A DNA stretch of 64,000 bases from Chryseobacterium aquaticum (GCF_036677985.1 NZ_JAZDST010000012.1:86971-150970), one strand, 5' to 3'. Shown: positions 7,469 to 19,280, counted from the stretch's first letter. The notes: generated from the sequence alone by a model not told the origin. Translations and numbers: made by a program.

Positions 7469-7621
7469 AATATTCAGATAATTTAATTGTATGTAACTGC
7501 AAATTTACTAATTTTAATGCGAAGCATATTTATTGAGATTAAATAAAAAACTGAGATTTATCAAATCTCGTACGTACAGAACCTGCTTTTTATTTGGCAG
7601 TGTTTTTGTAAAATTTATATT

Positions 7622-8392
7622 ATGAAAAAATTATTTTATATTACGACATTATTTGTTTTCATTTTTGGCAAGAGCCAGATTACAAATATCAATGACGGAG
7701 AATCTTTATCACTTAGAATTCATTACGGCTTTTTAACGGCAGGATCTGCCAATCTTACTGCAAAAAAAACAAATTACAAAGGCGTTCCTCATCTTTATGT
7801 GAAAGGAACAGGACAAACATCTGGTGCAGTGAAGGCTTTTTTTAAAGTTGAAGACTTATATGAAAGTTACATTGATATGCAGACAGAACTTCCCAGTTAC
7901 TATGTAAGAAATGTAAAAGAAGGAAGCTATACACAACATTTGCAGACCACTTTCAACCATGACAACAATACTTTAATTTTAACCGATAAAAAGAATCCTG
8001 CAAATGGTTCTAAAACTATAAAATCTGTAAAAGGTGTTCAGGATATGCTTTCATGCTTCTATTTTTTGAGAAGTAAAACTCCTGCAGAACTAAGAACAGG
8101 TACAGTTTTTAACATGAATGTCTGGATTGATGACGAAATGTTTCCGTTTCAGTTAAAAGTGGTGGGAACAGAAAATTTAAAAACAAAATTCGGGACGATT
8201 AATGCTTTGAAGATCATTCCTTCTGTGAAAAGCGGAAGAGTTTTTAAAGAAAAAGAAGGAGTTACGATGTGGGTTTCTAATGATGCGAATCATATTCCAT
8301 TGTTACTGAAAGCAGAATTAGCAGTAGGATCTTTAAAAGCAAGTATTGACAGCTATAAAAACGTAAAGTATCCTTTGAAGTTTATTAAATAA
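7622..8392 (+). CDS. DUF3108-type secreted protein
   Basis: Signal peptide; GESLSLRIHYGFLTAG, FFKVEDLYESY and QDMLSCFY resemble DUF3108 proteins. Confidence 0.75.
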   Translation: MKKLFYITTLFVFIFGKSQITNINDGESLSLRIHYGFLTAGSANLTAKKTNYKGVPHLYVKGTGQTSGAVKAFFKVEDLYESYIDMQTELPSYYVRNVKEGSYTQHLQTTFNHDNNTLILTDKKNPANGSKTIKSVKGVQDMLSCFYFLRSKTPAELRTGTVFNMNVWIDDEMFPFQLKVVGTENLKTKFGTINALKIIPSVKSGRVFKEKEGVTMWVSNDANHIPLLLKAELAVGSLKASIDSYKNVKYPLKFIK

Positions 8393-8414
8393 ATTAATCA
8401 CAAAAATTGAAAAT

Positions 8415-8450
8415 AATAAGAGCGATTTCTTGACAGAAATCGCTCTTATT
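8415..8450. terminator. Strong hairpin terminator after the DUF3108 gene, probably bidirectional
   Basis: Perfect 16-bp stem AATAAGAGCGATTTCT-TGAC-AGAAATCGCTCTTATT. Confidence 0.8.
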
Positions 8451-8532
8451 AAATATTAAGGTTAATTATAGGATGTTTATTTTAGGTAATCATGAATATT
8501 AATTAAAAATTCAGATCTTTTTAAATTTTCCT

Positions 8533-8767
8533 GTATCGGTCACAGAGCTTGAAAGCTCTGCGACTATACTAAGGGTTTTAACAATTGTGTTTTTTAGAAT
8601 CGTTTCCGAATTTTTTTTCTGAGTTTAAGTATAATTTACAGAGCCTTTCGACTCTGTAAAAATACTTTGGCTTTTTATCATTTGTGTTTATACCTCCCCA
8701 AACCAAAAAATATTGGTTCCGATACTAATCTATATTTTTGTAAAGATGATTAGTGACATTTATCTTG
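8533..8767 (-). ncRNA. Putative structured small RNA, copy 1
   Basis: Downstream of a TATTTTTG element; four hairpins fold better on the minus strand; ends approximate. Confidence 0.65.
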
Positions 8768-8770
8768 AGA

Positions 8771-8850
8771 CAAAAATACGAACATCACAATATACAAATC
8801 CAGCAAAGCTTATCGATAAATGTCGATTTCATTGTAGATATTTATCTACA
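8771..8850 (-). promoter_or_regulatory. Promoter plus two 18-bp palindromic boxes, copy 1
   Basis: -7 element TATTTTTG (8771-8778), TTTG 16 nt upstream; boxes TATCGATAAATGTCGATT (8811-8828) and perfect 8-2-8 inverted repeat TGTAGATATTTATCTACA (8833-8850). Confidence 0.75.
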
Positions 8851-8996
8851 AAAATTACACTTAATGGGTTTTAAAATACATCATTTAATAAAAACATTAC
8901 AAAAGCAATTTCCCGAAAGAAATCACTCTTGTAAATATTAATTTAGTTGTTGAATGTTTTTAATTGATAAAAACCAGATATTCTGATTTTCTTAAT

Positions 8997-9215
8997 TATC
9001 GCGAAACCTGTAGATTCTGTGATATAAAAAAGGTTGTAATGATTGTAGCTTTAGAATCGTTTTCGTTTTTTCTCAAGGTTAAGTATAATTTACAGAGCCT
9101 TTCGACTCTGCAAAAAATACTTGTGTTTTTTCATTTGTGTTTTTACCTCCCCAACCAAAAATTCTTGGTTACGATACCAATCTATTTTGAACGATGATTA
9201 GTAACATTTTTCTTG
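8997..9215 (-). ncRNA. Putative structured small RNA, copy 2 (distal hairpin diverged)
   Basis: Same P1/P2/motif/P3 architecture as copy 1; ends approximate. Confidence 0.6.
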
Positions 9216-9218
9216 AGA

Positions 9219-9298
9219 CAAAAGTAGTAACATCATGATATACAAAGCCAATAAATCATGTCGATAGATATCGAACCAGCTGTAGATATTTATCGACA
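9219..9298 (-). promoter_or_regulatory. Promoter plus two 18-bp palindromic boxes, copy 2
   Basis: TACTTTTG (9219-9226); boxes TGTCGATAGATATCGAAC (9259-9276) and TGTAGATATTTATCGACA (9281-9298). Confidence 0.75.
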
Positions 9299-9432
9299 AA
9301 ATGATTTAAAAAACTTTAAAATTTAAATGAAATATTCGCAGTAGCCATTTTTGGACAGAACCGCTTTTCTAAATATTGAAATTTTTTATGGAGTTTTCTG
9401 ATATGATAGAAATTCAAAAAATTGAATTCCTT

Positions 9433-9655
9433 GTATCAATCACAGAGCAAGAAAGCTCTGCGATTATACTAAAGGTTGTAATAATTGTGTTTTTAGAATC
9501 ATTTCCGAGTTTTCTTAAATATAGTTTACAGAGCCTTTCGACTCCGCAAACAATATTTTAGATTTTTTCATCATTTGTATTTTTACCTCCCAAGTTAAAA
9601 ATCTTGGTTTGTCACTAATCTATCTTTGGAACAATGATTAGTGATATTTTTCTTG
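9433..9655 (-). ncRNA. Putative structured small RNA, copy 3
   Basis: Same architecture as copy 1, with a compensatory G-C to A-U change in the distal hairpin; ends approximate. Confidence 0.65.
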
Positions 9656-9658
9656 AGA

Positions 9659-9738
9659 CAAAAGTAGTAACATATTGATATACAAACACAGTAAATCATA
9701 TCGATAAATGTCGAACGAGCTATAGATACTTATCTACA
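9659..9738 (-). promoter_or_regulatory. Promoter plus two 18-bp palindromic boxes, copy 3
   Basis: TACTTTTG (9659-9666); boxes TATCGATAAATGTCGAAC (9699-9716) and TATAGATACTTATCTACA (9721-9738). Confidence 0.75.
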
Positions 9739-9793
9739 ACTTATGATAAAGATGATTAAAAATAAAATTTACAAGAGAATCTTTAAGTGATAA

Positions 9794-10438
9794 TTACTGA
9801 TGGTTTTTCACCAATTCAACAAGTTCTACAATATTATCAATCTTTAATTTGTCAAATATCCGCTTTTTAATTGTACTTACTGTATTTTGTTTGAGATCCA
9901 GAAGATTTGCAATTTCGAGGTTTCCGTGACCTTTGCTGTACAGTTCTGCAATTTGTAATTCTCTTTCGGTAAGACCAAACAATGGATTGATAACTTTACG
10001 ATCTCGTAGAGAATTCATCAACAAAGCCTGTGTAGCGGGAGAAATATATTCTCCATCTTCTTTCATTTTTATAATTGCTTTCTTGATTTCTTCTTCCTCA
10101 CTTAGCTTGCTTAAAAAACCATTGGCACCTGCATTGATGTATTTAAGAGCATGCATATTTTCGTCTATTCCTGTAAATACCAGAATTTTTGTCTCAGGAT
10201 TTATTTTTCTTATTTCAGGTATTAAACTCAAACTATTACCGTCTGGAAAATGAGCATCAATAATCACTATATCTATGGGATTTGCTTTTATCAGCTCCAA
10301 TGTCTTTTGTAAATTCGGAGCCTGAAGAATTACAGTGTCAAACGGCAGATCTTCCAACAGGAAAGCGATTCCCTGTCGTATTAAGCTATGATCATCTGCA
10401 AGAAGAAAATTTATTGATGTATTCTCAATATAACTCAT
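9794..10438 (-). CDS. NarL/FixJ (LuxR-HTH) family response regulator
   Basis: LLADDH, IIDAHFPDG (phospho-Asp), VFTG, GFLSK receiver residues; LTERELQI...EIANLLDLKQNTVST HTH. Confidence 0.93.
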   Translation of the reverse strand: MSYIENTSINFLLADDHSLIRQGIAFLLEDLPFDTVILQAPNLQKTLELIKANPIDIVIIDAHFPDGNSLSLIPEIRKINPETKILVFTGIDENMHALKYINAGANGFLSKLSEEEEIKKAIIKMKEDGEYISPATQALLMNSLRDRKVINPLFGLTERELQIAELYSKGHGNLEIANLLDLKQNTVSTIKKRIFDKLKIDNIVELVELVKNHQ

Positions 10439-12165
10439 TTATTCAACTTTAAATTAAGAGAAAAAGATACGGTAGTTCCTTCATTTAACTCGCTATCGAC
10501 AGAAATATTACCTGAATATAATTCGACAAGTTCTTTACACAAACTCAATCCTAGACCCGCACCAAGATTTTCTACCTCATCGGAAATAATTCCCTGATAA
10601 TAAGGTTCAAATATTTTTTCTAAATCTGACTTTGAAATTCCTACGCCAGAATCCGTAATCTGCGTTTTTAGAACAACAGTATTTTCATCTACAGGCTCTG
10701 CAGAAGTCTTTACCGTAATTTCACCATTCTCTGTAAATTTATTGGCATTTCCGAGAATATTCATAAAAAGCTGATTGATTTTTGTATTGTCTGAATATAC
10801 AACAATATTCGGATCAATGTTTTTATCAATAATAAATTTATTATTTCTTGTCTGAATATAAGGCTCTATAGAAGTTAAGATAGATTCTACTTCGTTATTC
10901 AGATTAAAACTCACAGGAATCAGTTTATTTTCAACCTGTTGATTTTTAGTATATTCCAAAATCTGATTTGCCTGCATCAAAAGTGTATTATTAGTAAAGC
11001 TTATAGATTTTAAATACTCTTTAATGCTTTCGTCTGTTGTTTTCTTATTAATCCTATTGATGAAAATACCAATAATTTTCAAAGGAGACCTCAATTCGTG
11101 GCTCAACATTCCCAGAATTCTGTTTTTGAAATTCAGATTCTCTTTAATCTGAAGATTAGCAGCATTTAATCTTCTCTCATAAATAAATGCAATTCTTGTA
11201 AAATACATGATTAATATAGAAACGATAAACATCAAAATCATTAATCCTATGACCAGATCTTTTCTGATTTTATTACTTTTAGAATTTTGCGCAGCATACT
11301 CTTTTTCAAGATCCGTTTTAGAATCTTTTACCGCAGATTCATACACTCTCATCAGTTCGTTACTGTAAACCAATAATGAATTGAATGTAGAAAAGAGCTT
11401 CACACTCTCGTTTTTCCCATTATCTTTATTCTTGTTTACATTTACACGTATTTTTTGAACTTCTTTTGTGTAATGCTTATTGATGGAGTTTACAATACTG
11501 TCAACTTCACCTTTTACAGTAGGAATATCTAATATTTTACCGCCTTTTACCGTTACTACCACACTGTCTTTCCTTACGTTTTCCTTTCCTGATATTGCAT
11601 CACCGATACGACCAAACAAACCCTTCTTTTTTACGGTATCAGAATATGTTTTGGTTTGTACCTCAAATTTATCGAAATTATAATTGTAGTTGTACGTTTT
11701 AAGTTTCGGCAGAGCTTCGGGTATTTTTAGATTTGCATTTGTAGAAAACTGATAGGTAGAATCTGTAAGCAATTTTAGATTTTTTGTTTCGCCTACATTC
11801 TTTTTGTGAGATACTAAAATAGTTTTTACTCTCGGATTTTGAAATTTAAAATTATTAATGCTGTCAAGATTTTTTGTCAGTTTATTAACAGAAGTAAAAT
11901 AAGATTTTAAATACTGATCGTCTCGGCTGGTAACGTATTCCTGAAAATAATTTTGTGCATTATTAAGCTCTTTTCGGGAATCATCCGTAAGGTTCTCCAA
12001 TTGGTGAACTTCATTTAATTGTTTTTCAATGAAGTTTAAATTCTTATTATTAACGAATTCATTGTAAAAAAAACCTGCTATTATACATTGTATTAAAAGA
12101 ATGCAAATAATAAAAGAATATTGTACAATTTTTCTCAATCTAAAACTCATCGACTTTTTAACCAT
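10435..12165 (-). CDS. Membrane sensor histidine kinase (HisKA + HATPase_c)
   Basis: Two TM segments flanking a periplasmic domain; SHELRSPL H-box, NILGNANKFT, DSGVGI, GAGLGLSLC; 4-nt overlap with the response regulator. Confidence 0.93.
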   Translation of the reverse strand: MVKKSMSFRLRKIVQYSFIICILLIQCIIAGFFYNEFVNNKNLNFIEKQLNEVHQLENLTDDSRKELNNAQNYFQEYVTSRDDQYLKSYFTSVNKLTKNLDSINNFKFQNPRVKTILVSHKKNVGETKNLKLLTDSTYQFSTNANLKIPEALPKLKTYNYNYNFDKFEVQTKTYSDTVKKKGLFGRIGDAISGKENVRKDSVVVTVKGGKILDIPTVKGEVDSIVNSINKHYTKEVQKIRVNVNKNKDNGKNESVKLFSTFNSLLVYSNELMRVYESAVKDSKTDLEKEYAAQNSKSNKIRKDLVIGLMILMFIVSILIMYFTRIAFIYERRLNAANLQIKENLNFKNRILGMLSHELRSPLKIIGIFINRINKKTTDESIKEYLKSISFTNNTLLMQANQILEYTKNQQVENKLIPVSFNLNNEVESILTSIEPYIQTRNNKFIIDKNIDPNIVVYSDNTKINQLFMNILGNANKFTENGEITVKTSAEPVDENTVVLKTQITDSGVGISKSDLEKIFEPYYQGIISDEVENLGAGLGLSLCKELVELYSGNISVDSELNEGTTVSFSLNLKLNK

Positions 12166-18960: not shown

Positions 18961-19028
18961 AACAAAACCTCCTTGCAATATTATTACAAGGAGGTAAAAA
19001 CACAAATGATGAAAAAAAATTATTTCGA
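18961..19028 (-). ncRNA. Candidate U-rich small RNA
   Basis: Minus-strand terminator with no minus-strand gene nearby; TTTTTTTTCATCATTTGTGTTTTT precedes it; only an imperfect promoter (TTCCTTTG, 19033-19040). Confidence 0.4.
18964..18995 (-). terminator. Terminator hairpin with a U tract only on the minus strand
   Basis: ACCTCCTTG/CAAGGAGGT stem; followed by TTTTGTTTT on the minus strand but AAAAACAC on the plus strand. Confidence 0.7.
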
Positions 19029-19280
19029 GCAACAAAGGAATGAAAAATATTTGAATTATTAATTACCATAGATCAAGATTTATAAACTTTTTTTGATTTT
19101 GTAGGTTTTATGCACATAATTCACTTGTTAAAAATATCAATCTGAAACACGACAATCGCGGTAATTAAAATTAAATTTTAATTTATTTAAATCAATTTAA
19201 TGAAAAATATGAACTTTAAGTAAATTTTTGTTTTAAAATTTATCTATATTTATTATTTTTGCTTTTAAATAAAAAATAGA

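What the first reader, a model, noticed from the sequence alone, without database searches (positions are those of the whole stretch)
8771..9738. Each unit has its own promoter and a phased pair of 18-bp palindromes: likely binding sites of the adjacent NarL/LuxR regulator
Seen: all three copies have a minus-strand -7 element (TATTTTTG or TACTTTTG at 8771, 9219, 9659) with TTTG exactly 16 nt upstream. Two 18-bp boxes follow, starting exactly 22 bp apart (8811/8833, 9259/9281, 9699/9721), with half-site TRTMGATA; the best is the perfect inverted repeat TGTAGATA-TT-TATCTACA. Box centres lie at roughly -55 and -77. Known: the Bacteroidota housekeeping promoter is TTTG-N19-21-TAnnTTTG; NarL/FixJ regulators bind inverted repeats as dimers; the GacA box upstream of rsm RNAs is the 18-bp TGTAAG-N6-CTTACA, the same geometry as TGTAGA-N6-TCTACA here. 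Inference: a short-spacer, activator-dependent promoter bound by two dimers two helical turns apart, most simply the regulator encoded 55 bp away.
Basis: partly seen in the sequence, partly recalled or inferred. Interest (0 to 1): 0.85.

Follow-up and report, generated by a model that had tools for sequence, protein, structure and literature searches.

The report
Regulator docking sites before small-RNA genes
Each of three tandem small-RNA genes in Chryseobacterium aquaticum has its own promoter preceded by two precisely spaced palindromes that, judged from about 100 related genomes, are almost certainly the docking sites of the two-component response regulator encoded next door; this defines an undescribed but conventional regulator-to-small-RNA circuit in Bacteroidota.

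Summary
Comparative data strongly support the reading, but binding itself is untested.

- **Local layout.** On the minus strand, a histidine kinase (HK) and a NarL-type response regulator (RR) are followed by three units. Each unit reads box2, 4 nt, box1, 32 nt, TAnnTTTG, then a ~300-nt non-coding RNA.
- **Conservation next to the RR.** All 80 orthologous RR loci examined (Chryseobacterium, Epilithonimonas, Kaistella, Soonwooa, Cloacibacterium, Elizabethkingia) carry the module just after the RR stop. Box spacing is 22 bp in 101 of 105 modules. Box1 to the -7 element is always 31-33 nt.
- **Genome-wide specificity.** In 121 family genomes a dual-box pattern occurs only in genomes with the kinase orthologue (18/37 vs 0/84, p=1.4e-11). 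Twenty-two of 23 hits lie beside the RR.
- **Sister subfamily.** A sister RR subfamily has the same dual-box promoter in front of a membrane GT2 glycosyltransferase gene instead of an sRNA. The boxes therefore track the regulator, not the target.
- **What did not hold.** The "TTTG 16 nt upstream, short spacer" detail is specific to C. aquaticum.
- **Classification.** The system works like GacA-Rsm or LisR-LhrC but is not a member: there is no CsrA, the kinase is not hybrid, and the RR scores below the GacA cut-off.

It is a new member of a known kind, of moderate to high interest.

The parts
10435..12165 (-). Sensor histidine kinase, 576 aa. It has two transmembrane segments flanking a ~270-aa extracytoplasmic domain, then HisKA and HATPase_c, with no receiver or Hpt domain. 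It overlaps the RR start by 4 nt.
   Evidence: Pfam hits. Translation. NCBIfam kinase-core hits to LuxQ/BarA, all far below cut-off. Weak CHASE3 hit, E=0.0014, below cut-off.
9794..10438 (-). NarL/FixJ-family response regulator, 214 aa (REC + GerE/LuxR HTH). The proposed recognition helix is KQNTVSTIKKRIF. It is the proposed binder of the boxes.
   Evidence: Pfam REC 1.1e-20 and GerE 1.1e-12. Closest solved structure is NarL 1a04, 1.3e-20; D61 aligns with the NarL phospho-acceptor Asp, as placed from my recollection of NarL. Best NCBIfam hit is UvrY/SirA/GacA at 112.7 bits, below the 280 cut-off.
9721..9738 (-). Unit C distal box (box2): TGTAGATAAGTATCTATA on the minus strand, centre about -75.5.
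9699..9716 (-). Unit C proximal box (box1): GTTCGACATTTATCGATA on the minus strand, centre about -53.5.
9659..9666 (-). Unit C -7 promoter element TACTTTTG. A species-specific TTTG lies at 9686-9683. Predicted start is near 9654.
   Evidence: numbering from PMC6847099
9325..9654 (-). Unit C non-coding transcript (~330 nt) carrying the family motif AAAUACAAAUGAUGAAAA. Its 3' hairpin is degenerate, so read-through into unit B is possible.
   Evidence: Unit alignment. Motif counts. Fold z-score -0.38.
9281..9298 (-). Unit B distal box: TGTCGATAAATATCTACA on the minus strand.
9259..9276 (-). Unit B proximal box: GTTCGATATCTATCGACA on the minus strand.
9219..9226 (-). Unit B -7 element TACTTTTG. 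TTTG at 9246-9243. Predicted start is near 9214.
8887..9214 (-). Unit B non-coding transcript, ending at a strong terminator (stem 8934-8897 plus U-run).
   Evidence: Terminator scan. Fold -17.5 kcal/mol, z -5.3.
8833..8850 (-). Unit A distal box: TGTAGATAAATATCTACA on the minus strand, with perfect 8/8 arms. It is identical to the cross-genus consensus.
8811..8828 (-). Unit A proximal box: AATCGACATTTATCGATA on the minus strand.
8771..8778 (-). Unit A -7 element TATTTTTG. TTTG at 8798-8795. Predicted start is near 8766.
8404..8766 (-). Unit A non-coding transcript, ending at a 17-bp terminator (stem 8451-8414 plus U-run).
   Evidence: Terminator scan. Fold -23.9 kcal/mol, z -7.5.

Best explanation
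The two 18-bp palindromes in front of each unit are the operator of the response regulator encoded 55 bp upstream.

**Proposed mechanism.**
- The kinase senses an unknown extracytoplasmic signal and phosphorylates the RR, probably on D61.
- One RR dimer binds the near-perfect distal box (TGTAGATA-AA-TATCTACA, centre about -75.5).
- A second dimer binds the weaker proximal box (core CGA-N5-ATC, centre about -53.5). It lies two helical turns away, on the same face of the DNA.
- From there the RR helps the housekeeping Bacteroidota RNA polymerase use a promoter that has a good -7 element (TAnnTTTG) but no conserved -33 element.
- The product of each unit is a ~300-nt non-coding RNA carrying the family motif AAACACAAAUGAUGA.

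**Shown here:** the sequence elements, their rigid geometry, their conservation, their exclusive genomic linkage to this RR family, and the swap of the downstream target between RR subfamilies.

**Inferred:** physical binding, cooperativity, activation rather than repression, and the transcription start sites.
For: 1. **Local anatomy** verified base by base.
2. **Synteny.** The best 80 orthologous RR loci, from six named genera, all carry the module right after the RR stop. A regular expression finds it in 78; L072 and L104 are variants found by eye.
3. **Geometry.** Box start-to-start distance is 22 bp in 101/105 modules and 21 bp in 4. Box1 end to the TA of the -7 element is 31-33 nt, with 71 modules at 32.
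4. **Footprint-like conservation** in 73 non-redundant modules. Mean relative entropy is 1.49 bits for box2, 1.13 for box1 and 1.24 for the -7 element. It is 0.17 in the upstream flank, 0.30 in the 4-nt spacer and 0.33 between box1 and the -7 element. Invariant positions are T3, G5, A6, T13, C14, A16 in box2 and G5, A6, A12, T13, C14 in box1.
5. **Phyletic profile** in 121 Weeksellaceae genomes. The kinase sensor orthologue is in 37. The dual-box pattern is in 18, all kinase-positive (Fisher p=1.4e-11). The reversed-pattern control gave 0. Of 23 hits, 22 lie about 2.3 kb from the kinase N-terminus, i.e. just past the RR. The 23rd is a complete remote module plus sRNA copy in Cloacibacterium.
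6. **Target swap.** In nine loci of a sister RR subfamily the same box2, 4 nt, box1, 31-32 nt, -7 arrangement follows the RR but drives a ~460-aa membrane GT2 glycosyltransferase with a short leader. One genome (G135) has both types. In the RR tree the GT2-type RRs group together, and the sRNA-type RRs form a clade with 95/84 support.
7. **The RR itself.** It is an apparently intact NarL-family protein: D61 aligns with the NarL phospho-acceptor Asp. Only two other GerE HTH proteins exist in the genome, each 40% identical in the HTH.
8. **Possible co-variation.** The clade whose half-site changes from TGTAGATA to [CT]ATMGATA also changes the recognition helix from KKRIF to KKNIF. This is a single event, so it is only suggestive.
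Against: - There is no binding, expression or transcription-start data.
- Conservation plus linkage cannot exclude a second protein that binds the same sites.
- The -7 elements are good matches to the consensus, and -33 elements are weak in Flavobacteriia generally (PMC6847099). The promoters could therefore be partly constitutive, with the RR only modulating them.
- Three RRs of one genus (G051, G121, G095) have no box next to them.
- Two perfect single boxes elsewhere in this genome lack box1 and the fixed promoter distance. Site function may therefore be more varied than a simple sRNA-only regulon.
Confidence: 0.77

Rival explanations
1. The palindromes are bound by a different transcription factor, for example a Crp/Fnr- or GntR-type dimer. 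The sRNA genes would then lie next to the two-component system for another reason, for instance because the sRNAs act on the TCS mRNA.
For: TGT...ACA-ended palindromes are used by several regulator families (my own knowledge; a GntR-type consensus NyGTNxACNy is quoted in PMC7641319). No binding data exist.
Against: - The dual box occurs only in genomes with this TCS, and 22/23 times directly beside the RR.
- The boxes stay with the RR when the downstream gene changes from an sRNA to a GT2 gene.
- The 8-2-8 inverted repeat fits NarL-family dimers.
- No other close GerE paralogue exists in the genome.
Confidence: 0.1
2. The RR does bind the boxes, but as a repressor or anti-activator of an otherwise constitutive promoter. 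Alternatively it acts as a roadblock or insulator between the RR transcript and the sRNA units.
For: The -7 elements match the TAHHTTTG consensus well, and -33 is dispensable in many Flavobacteriia promoters. In C. aquaticum no terminator separates the RR gene from unit C.
Against: - Sites centred at about -53 and -75 lie upstream of the core promoter, which is the usual place for activators; repressors normally overlap -33/-7 or the start site.
- The fixed 31-33-nt distance to the -7 element implies a stereospecific contact with RNA polymerase.
- The GT2-type promoters have poorer -7 elements (TTnCTTTG, lacking A-11) that would need help.
- Many species have a terminator between the RR gene and box2.
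Confidence: 0.1
3. The boxes have no function of their own. They are repeated only because the whole ~440-bp unit was tandemly duplicated.
For: The three copies in the window are paralogues (67-81% identical over a 144-nt repeat family that includes the boxes and promoter). The within-window repetition is therefore not independent evidence.
Against: Single-unit loci in other genera keep the boxes nearly invariant while the flanks are randomised. The boxes also precede an unrelated protein gene.
Confidence: 0.01

Closest known systems
GacS/GacA (BarA/UvrY) with the 18-bp upstream activating sequence of rsmX/Y/Z in Pseudomonas (TGTAAGCATTCTCTTACA before rsmY; PMC4353343)
   Same: - A NarL-family RR whose conserved palindromic 18-bp box (6-N6-6, TGTA...TACA ends) lies upstream of the promoters of multicopy regulatory RNA genes.
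- The RR's best NCBIfam hit is the UvrY/SirA/GacA model.
- The full dual-box promoter precedes only sRNA genes here.
   Different: - The RR scores 112.7 bits against a cut-off of 280, so it is not an orthologue.
- The kinase is a plain HisKA kinase without receiver or Hpt domains.
- The box sequence differs (TGTAGA vs TGTAAG), and there are two phased boxes rather than one.
- The sRNA genes lie directly beside the RR gene.
- There is no CsrA/RsmA gene in the genome.
- The promoter is of the Bacteroidota -7 type.
LisRK and the multicopy LhrC1-5 sRNAs of Listeria monocytogenes (PMC4132741)
   Same: A two-component system is indispensable for the expression of several sibling sRNA copies.
   Different: - That LhrC copies lie in tandem, each with its own promoter, is my recollection and was not checked here.
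- LisR is an OmpR-type regulator (my knowledge), not NarL-type.
- The phylum, box, sRNA sequence and motif (CU-rich) all differ.
- The LhrC genes are not adjacent to lisRK (my knowledge).
CbrA/CbrB with crcZ in Pseudomonas (recalled from memory, not checked here)
   Same: The sRNA gene lies immediately downstream of the RR gene in the same orientation. It is transcribed from its own RR-dependent promoter. The RNA carries repeated A-rich motifs.
   Different: CbrB is an NtrC-type enhancer-binding protein that works with sigma-54. Here the RR is NarL-type and the promoter is a housekeeping-type -7 promoter.
NarL 7-2-7 sites and DosR/VraR palindromes (NarL 1a04 and DevR 3c3w are the closest solved structures)
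   Same: The RR has the same fold and domain order. The targets are two-fold symmetric sites bound by dimers (that NarL, DosR and VraR bind as dimers is my knowledge), sometimes as strong-plus-weak pairs upstream of -35.
   Different: The half-site sequence and length differ (8-2-8). The recognition-helix residues also differ: S/T/K/R here at the positions I equate, from memory of the NarL-DNA complex, with NarL K188/V189/K192/H193 (alignment).

Membership tests
Gac/Rsm (GacS-GacA-RsmXYZ-CsrA) system | The RR is a UvrY/SirA/GacA orthologue | tested here: not met
   NF007018 is the best hit, but at 112.7 bits against a curated cut-off of 280.
Gac/Rsm (GacS-GacA-RsmXYZ-CsrA) system | Unorthodox hybrid kinase with receiver and Hpt domains | tested here: not met
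   576 aa with only HisKA and HATPase_c after two TM segments.
Gac/Rsm (GacS-GacA-RsmXYZ-CsrA) system | CsrA/RsmA protein that the sRNAs sequester | tested here: not met
   PF02599 was not found in the 99.9%-complete genome; the positive controls were detected.
Gac/Rsm (GacS-GacA-RsmXYZ-CsrA) system | 18-bp palindromic UAS TGTAAG-N6-CTTACA upstream of the sRNA promoter | tested here: inconclusive
   The length and 6-N6-6 geometry are the same, and the outer TGTA/TACA is shared. The inner half-site differs (TGTAGA-N6-TCTACA), and two boxes are present.
NarL/FixJ-family response regulator operator | Adjacent regulator has REC plus a GerE/LuxR HTH with intact phospho-acceptor residues | tested here: met
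   Pfam hits. In the alignment to NarL, D61 aligns with the NarL phospho-acceptor Asp; my residue numbering for NarL is from memory.
NarL/FixJ-family response regulator operator | Two-fold symmetric inverted-repeat site conserved in orthologous promoters | tested here: met
   The 8-2-8 palindrome has symmetric invariant positions T3, G5, A6 / T13, C14, A16.
NarL/FixJ-family response regulator operator | Site co-occurs with and is linked to the regulator across genomes | tested here: met
   80/80 loci carry it. 18/37 kinase-positive against 0/84 kinase-negative genomes have the pattern. 22/23 hits are adjacent to the RR. The boxes persist when the target gene changes.
NarL/FixJ-family response regulator operator | Direct, phosphorylation-dependent binding of the protein to the site | not testable with these tools
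   Needs EMSA, footprinting, or ChIP/DAP-seq.
Bacteroidota housekeeping (sigma-ABfr) promoter | -7 element TAnnTTTG (TAHHTTTG) | tested here: met
   TATTTTTG and TACTTTTG (twice) in the window. The element lies at a fixed distance in 105 modules. Consensus from PMC6847099.
Bacteroidota housekeeping (sigma-ABfr) promoter | -33 element TTTG 19-21 nt upstream of the -7 element | tested here: not met
   The spacer is 16 nt in the window. Only 3/73 orthologous modules have a TTTG at 19-21 nt, and 3/73 at 16 nt.
Any Rfam RNA family (for the transcribed part) | Covariance-model match | tested here: not met
   There was no hit within the three units at E<=1. The only hits in 7500-10500 are chance-level ones on the 8402-8484 terminator hairpin.

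The most novel reading that the evidence does not exclude
This two-component system would head a Gac/Rsm-like post-transcriptional cascade in a lineage that has no CsrA.

- Its only full dual-box targets would be decoy RNAs whose conserved single-stranded motif (GGAGGU)AAAAACACAAAUGAUGA imitates a translation start region.
- These RNAs would titrate a partner. One candidate is the small minus-strand RNA at window ~19030-18968, which is perfectly antisense to that motif. Another is an RNA-binding protein.
- In evolution, the sRNA genes would have taken the place of an exopolysaccharide-type GT2 synthase gene behind the same RR-dependent promoter. That would be a switch from direct transcriptional control to RNA-mediated control of a surface or biofilm trait.
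Probability: 0.2. Interest if true: 0.85.

Novelty: new member of a known kind. Interest (0 to 1): 0.62.

Why it matters
Regulatory RNAs and their transcriptional control are poorly charted in Bacteroidota. [quoted passage not shown]

- **A defined circuit.** The work gives, at nucleotide resolution, a conserved cis-element, its probable regulator and its outputs. The system is spread over at least 16 of 49 sampled Weeksellaceae genera, including the opportunistic pathogen genus Elizabethkingia.
- **Directly testable.** Mutating four invariant bases or deleting one gene should be informative.
- **A route to function.** The sister subfamily drives a membrane GT2 polysaccharide-type synthase from the same promoter design. 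This hints that the signal and the sRNAs concern surface or biofilm biology.
- **An example of rewiring.** It is a clean natural case of a regulator-operator pair kept constant while its target was exchanged between a protein gene and sRNA genes.

Tried and rejected
- **Rfam** scan of 7500-10500 at E<=1 gave only chance hits on a terminator hairpin.
- **Literature.** Four full-text searches aimed at the box sequence, Weeksellaceae or Bacteroidota sRNAs, and RR-controlled sRNAs found nothing describing this system.
- **Autoregulation.** The pattern scans found no box upstream of the kinase, either in the window or in the 80 loci.
- **Apparent box outside the family** (G027, L011) is a spurious match inside coding sequence.
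- **Distant homologous TCS in another family** (G300, RR 43% identical) has no box downstream.
- **CsrA** is absent, so Gac/Rsm membership is rejected.
- **Small-peptide reading of the conserved AUG.** I translated the three units by eye from the alignment. Unit B is frame-shifted relative to A and C, and in other species the frame stops after 3 codons.
- **Terminator reading of the palindrome.** I rejected it by inspection, without a fold: an 8-bp AT-only stem with a 2-nt loop should not be a stable hairpin.
- **Two orphan perfect boxes in this genome** (C24:26371 and C48:52306) lack box1 and the fixed promoter distance. The first is conserved in one sister species only, so regulon membership is left open.

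Full report
**What is in the window.**
The window comes from Chryseobacterium aquaticum: the response-regulator (RR) protein is 100% identical to strain C-174. Read on the minus strand, the region 12165-8395 holds the following.
- A 576-aa sensor kinase (HisKA + HATPase_c).
- A 214-aa NarL-type RR (REC + GerE), overlapping the kinase gene by 4 nt.
- Three tandem units of ~440 bp, 67-81% identical over the 144-nt repeat family that includes the boxes and promoter, with no conserved reading frame.

Each unit reads box2 (18 bp), 4 nt, box1 (18 bp), 32 nt, TAnnTTTG, and then a ~300-nt transcribed part. Units A and B end in strong intrinsic terminators (z -7.5 and -5.3). The hairpin of unit C is degenerate. 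Rfam has nothing for the units.

**Check of the observation.**
- The distal boxes match TRTMGATA-NN-TATCKAYA without mismatch. The proximal boxes have 2, 2 and 3 mismatches.
- The pattern at <=2 mismatches occurs 5 times in the window against 0.29 expected.
- It occurs exactly 5 times in the 3.89-Mb genome, 3 of them here. My own composition-based estimate of the chance expectation is about 0.1.

The three copies are paralogues, so I relied on other genomes for independent evidence.

**Comparative evidence.**
I used the RR as a probe and fetched the 80 best orthologous loci. They come from Chryseobacterium, Epilithonimonas, Kaistella, Soonwooa, Cloacibacterium and Elizabethkingia.
- All 80 carry the same module directly after the RR stop. 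Often it sits right behind the RR's own terminator.
- Loci hold between one and five units.
- With spacing left free, 101 of 105 modules have the boxes 22 bp apart and 4 have 21 bp. The distance from box1 to the TA of the -7 element is always 31-33 nt.
- In 73 non-redundant modules the boxes and the -7 element stand out from randomised flanks. Relative entropy is 1.49 for box2, 1.13 for box1 and 1.24 for the -7 element. It is 0.17-0.33 elsewhere.
- The invariant positions are symmetric: T3, G5, A6 / T13, C14, A16 in box2, and G5, A6 / A12, T13, C14 in box1.
- The consensus is TGTAGATA-AA-TATCTACA, then 4 nt, then nnnCGATATATATCTAnn. This amounts to a full 8-2-8 palindrome distally and a core-only, presumably weaker, palindrome proximally.

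**Genome-wide specificity.**
I sampled 121 Weeksellaceae genomes from 49 genera.
- The kinase's sensor domain has an orthologue in 37 genomes from 16 genera.
- A strict dual-box pattern (TMGAWAARNATCKA-N9-MGA-N5-ATC) is present in 18 genomes, all of them kinase-positive. None of the 84 kinase-negative genomes has it (Fisher p = 1.4e-11).
- The reversed-pattern control gave zero hits.
- Of the 23 hits, 22 lie about 2.3 kb from the kinase N-terminus, just past the RR.
- The remaining hit, in Cloacibacterium, is a complete second module with its own sRNA copy elsewhere on the chromosome.
- In a sample of 201 genomes of the order, orthologues occur only in this family. A distant homologous two-component system (TCS) in another family (RR 43% identical) has no box.

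**The boxes follow the regulator, not the RNA.**
Nine more distant loci have RRs 46-58% identical to the query. One of them is a second, paralogous system in genome G135, which also has an sRNA-type locus.
- In these loci the same arrangement follows the RR stop: box2, 4 nt, box1, 31-32 nt, then a -7-like element (T[TA]nCTTTG).
- What it drives is a ~460-aa membrane protein with a family-2 glycosyltransferase domain (PF00535). A TRW motif suggests to me a processive synthase. The gene starts 25-40 nt after the -7 element.
- C. aquaticum has no orthologue of that gene.
- In an RR tree the GT2-linked regulators group together. The sRNA-linked ones form a clade with 95/84 support.
- The recognition helix is nearly the same in both groups: KQNTVST[ILMV]KKRIF against KQNTVST[FY]KKRIF.

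The regulator and operator have therefore stayed constant while the target was exchanged. This is the strongest argument short of an experiment that the RR binds the boxes. It also supports the promoter assignment, because in the GT2 loci there is no room for another promoter.

**The regulator.**
- It is an apparently intact NarL/FixJ-family protein. NarL (1a04) and DevR (3c3w) are the closest solved structures, and D61 aligns with the NarL phospho-acceptor Asp.
- Only two other GerE-type HTH proteins are detectable in the genome. Both are 40% identical in the HTH.
- One clade changes the outer half-site from TGTAGATA to [CT]ATMGATA. The same clade changes the helix from KKRIF to KKNIF. This is compatible with co-evolution but is a single event.

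**Promoter details.**
- With the F. johnsoniae numbering (T-12, A-11, T-8 to G-5; PMC6847099) the box centres are at -53.5 and -75.5. The 22-bp offset is 2.1 helical turns, so both lie on one face of the DNA.
- These are positions typical of upstream (class I-like) activation.
It is present in only 3 of 73 orthologous loci, and a canonical -33 at 19-21 nt is equally rare.
- The same paper reports that -33 is "much less evident" in Flavobacterium promoters. The missing -33 is therefore weak evidence for activator dependence.
- The fixed box-to-promoter distance and the poorer -7 elements of the GT2-type promoters argue better for activation.

**Comparison with known systems.**
In function this resembles GacA with its 18-bp UAS before the rsm genes (PMC4353343), LisR with LhrC1-5 (PMC4132741), and CbrB with crcZ (from memory). 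It is not a Gac/Rsm member, for four reasons.
- The RR scores 112.7 bits against a cut-off of 280.
- The kinase is not hybrid.
- There is no CsrA.
- The box sequence differs.

I found no description of this system in the searchable literature. That note is a lead only and I did not test it.

**Output RNAs.**
These are context and belong to sibling findings. Of 94 units across genera, 75 contain AAACACAAA, part of a shared AAAACACAAAUGAUGAAA motif. I rejected a small-peptide reading by translating the units by eye: unit B is frame-shifted, and the frame stops after 3 codons in other species. At window ~19030-18968 a minus-strand terminator is preceded by the exact antisense of that motif.

**Verdict.**
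- This is a new member of a known kind: an RR-dependent sRNA promoter with palindromic upstream sites.
- My confidence that the boxes are the adjacent RR's operator is about 0.77.
- Binding, the direction of control, the signal and the start sites remain to be shown.

Noticed in passing
L158-L162, L164-L166, L174 (Weeksellaceae genomes G049, G137, G109, G145, G041, G093, G119, G108, G135): A sister subfamily of the same two-component system has the identical dual-box promoter in front of a ~460-aa membrane GT2 glycosyltransferase gene instead of sRNA genes. The TRW motif suggests a processive synthase. Genome G135 carries both types.
   Followed up: partly
window 18968-19030, minus strand: A hairpin CCUCCUUG...CAAGGAGG followed by a U-run (a minus-strand terminator) is preceded by UCAUCAUUUGUGUUUUUACCUCC. 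That sequence is the exact antisense of the conserved core of the tandem RNAs. No box lies nearby.
   Followed up: partly
own genome G000:C24:26371-26388 (locus L107 6372-6389): A perfect single box (TATAGATAAATATCTACA) lies ~390 nt upstream of three tandem paralogous 128-aa genes. By recollection, without a family search, these look like type VI secretion tssD/Hcp genes, with tssB/tssC-like genes upstream. The box is a conserved island in otherwise diverged sequence in one sister species (G016). It is absent in G001 and G019.
   Followed up: partly
own genome G000:C48:52306-52323 (locus L108 5307-5324): A second perfect single box (TGTAGATAAATATCTACA) lies ~145 bp upstream of a 199-aa minus-strand ORF, in an AT-rich gap beside a 346-aa gene that I identified by eye as guaC (no family search). 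There is no box1, and the -7 element is not at the module distance.
   Followed up: partly
L109 (G138, Cloacibacterium) minus strand, around 1506: A complete box2-box1-promoter-sRNA module lies more than 1 Mb from the TCS. The module can therefore function, or at least persist, away from the regulator gene.
   Followed up: partly
window 9325-9395: Unit C has no convincing terminator (fold z -0.38). Its transcript may read through the boxes and promoter of unit B.
   Followed up: partly
L087, L090-L102, L104-L106 (Elizabethkingia and a Chryseobacterium clade): The RR recognition helix changes from KKRIF to KKNIF in the same clade whose half-site changes from TGTAGATA to [CT]ATMGATA. This may be protein-DNA co-variation, but it is a single event.
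   Followed up: partly
L114/L115 alignment A2, columns ~780-870 (upstream of tssD): A twice-repeated motif GGATATATTCCATWTTTGG precedes the first tssD gene and is conserved in three species. It is unrelated to the box, and its function is unknown.
   Followed up: no
L113, L167, L168 (genomes G095, G121, G051, one genus): The RRs of this genus are not followed by any box. G095 instead has one exact box inside a longer palindrome (CTGCTCT-box-AGAGCAG), ~100 nt upstream of a gene whose product begins with what looks by eye like a lipoprotein signal (L110).
   Followed up: no
window 10435-12165 (residues ~30-300 of the kinase): The extracytoplasmic sensor domain has no Pfam family above threshold. 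There is only a weak CHASE3-like hit (E=0.0014).
   Followed up: partly
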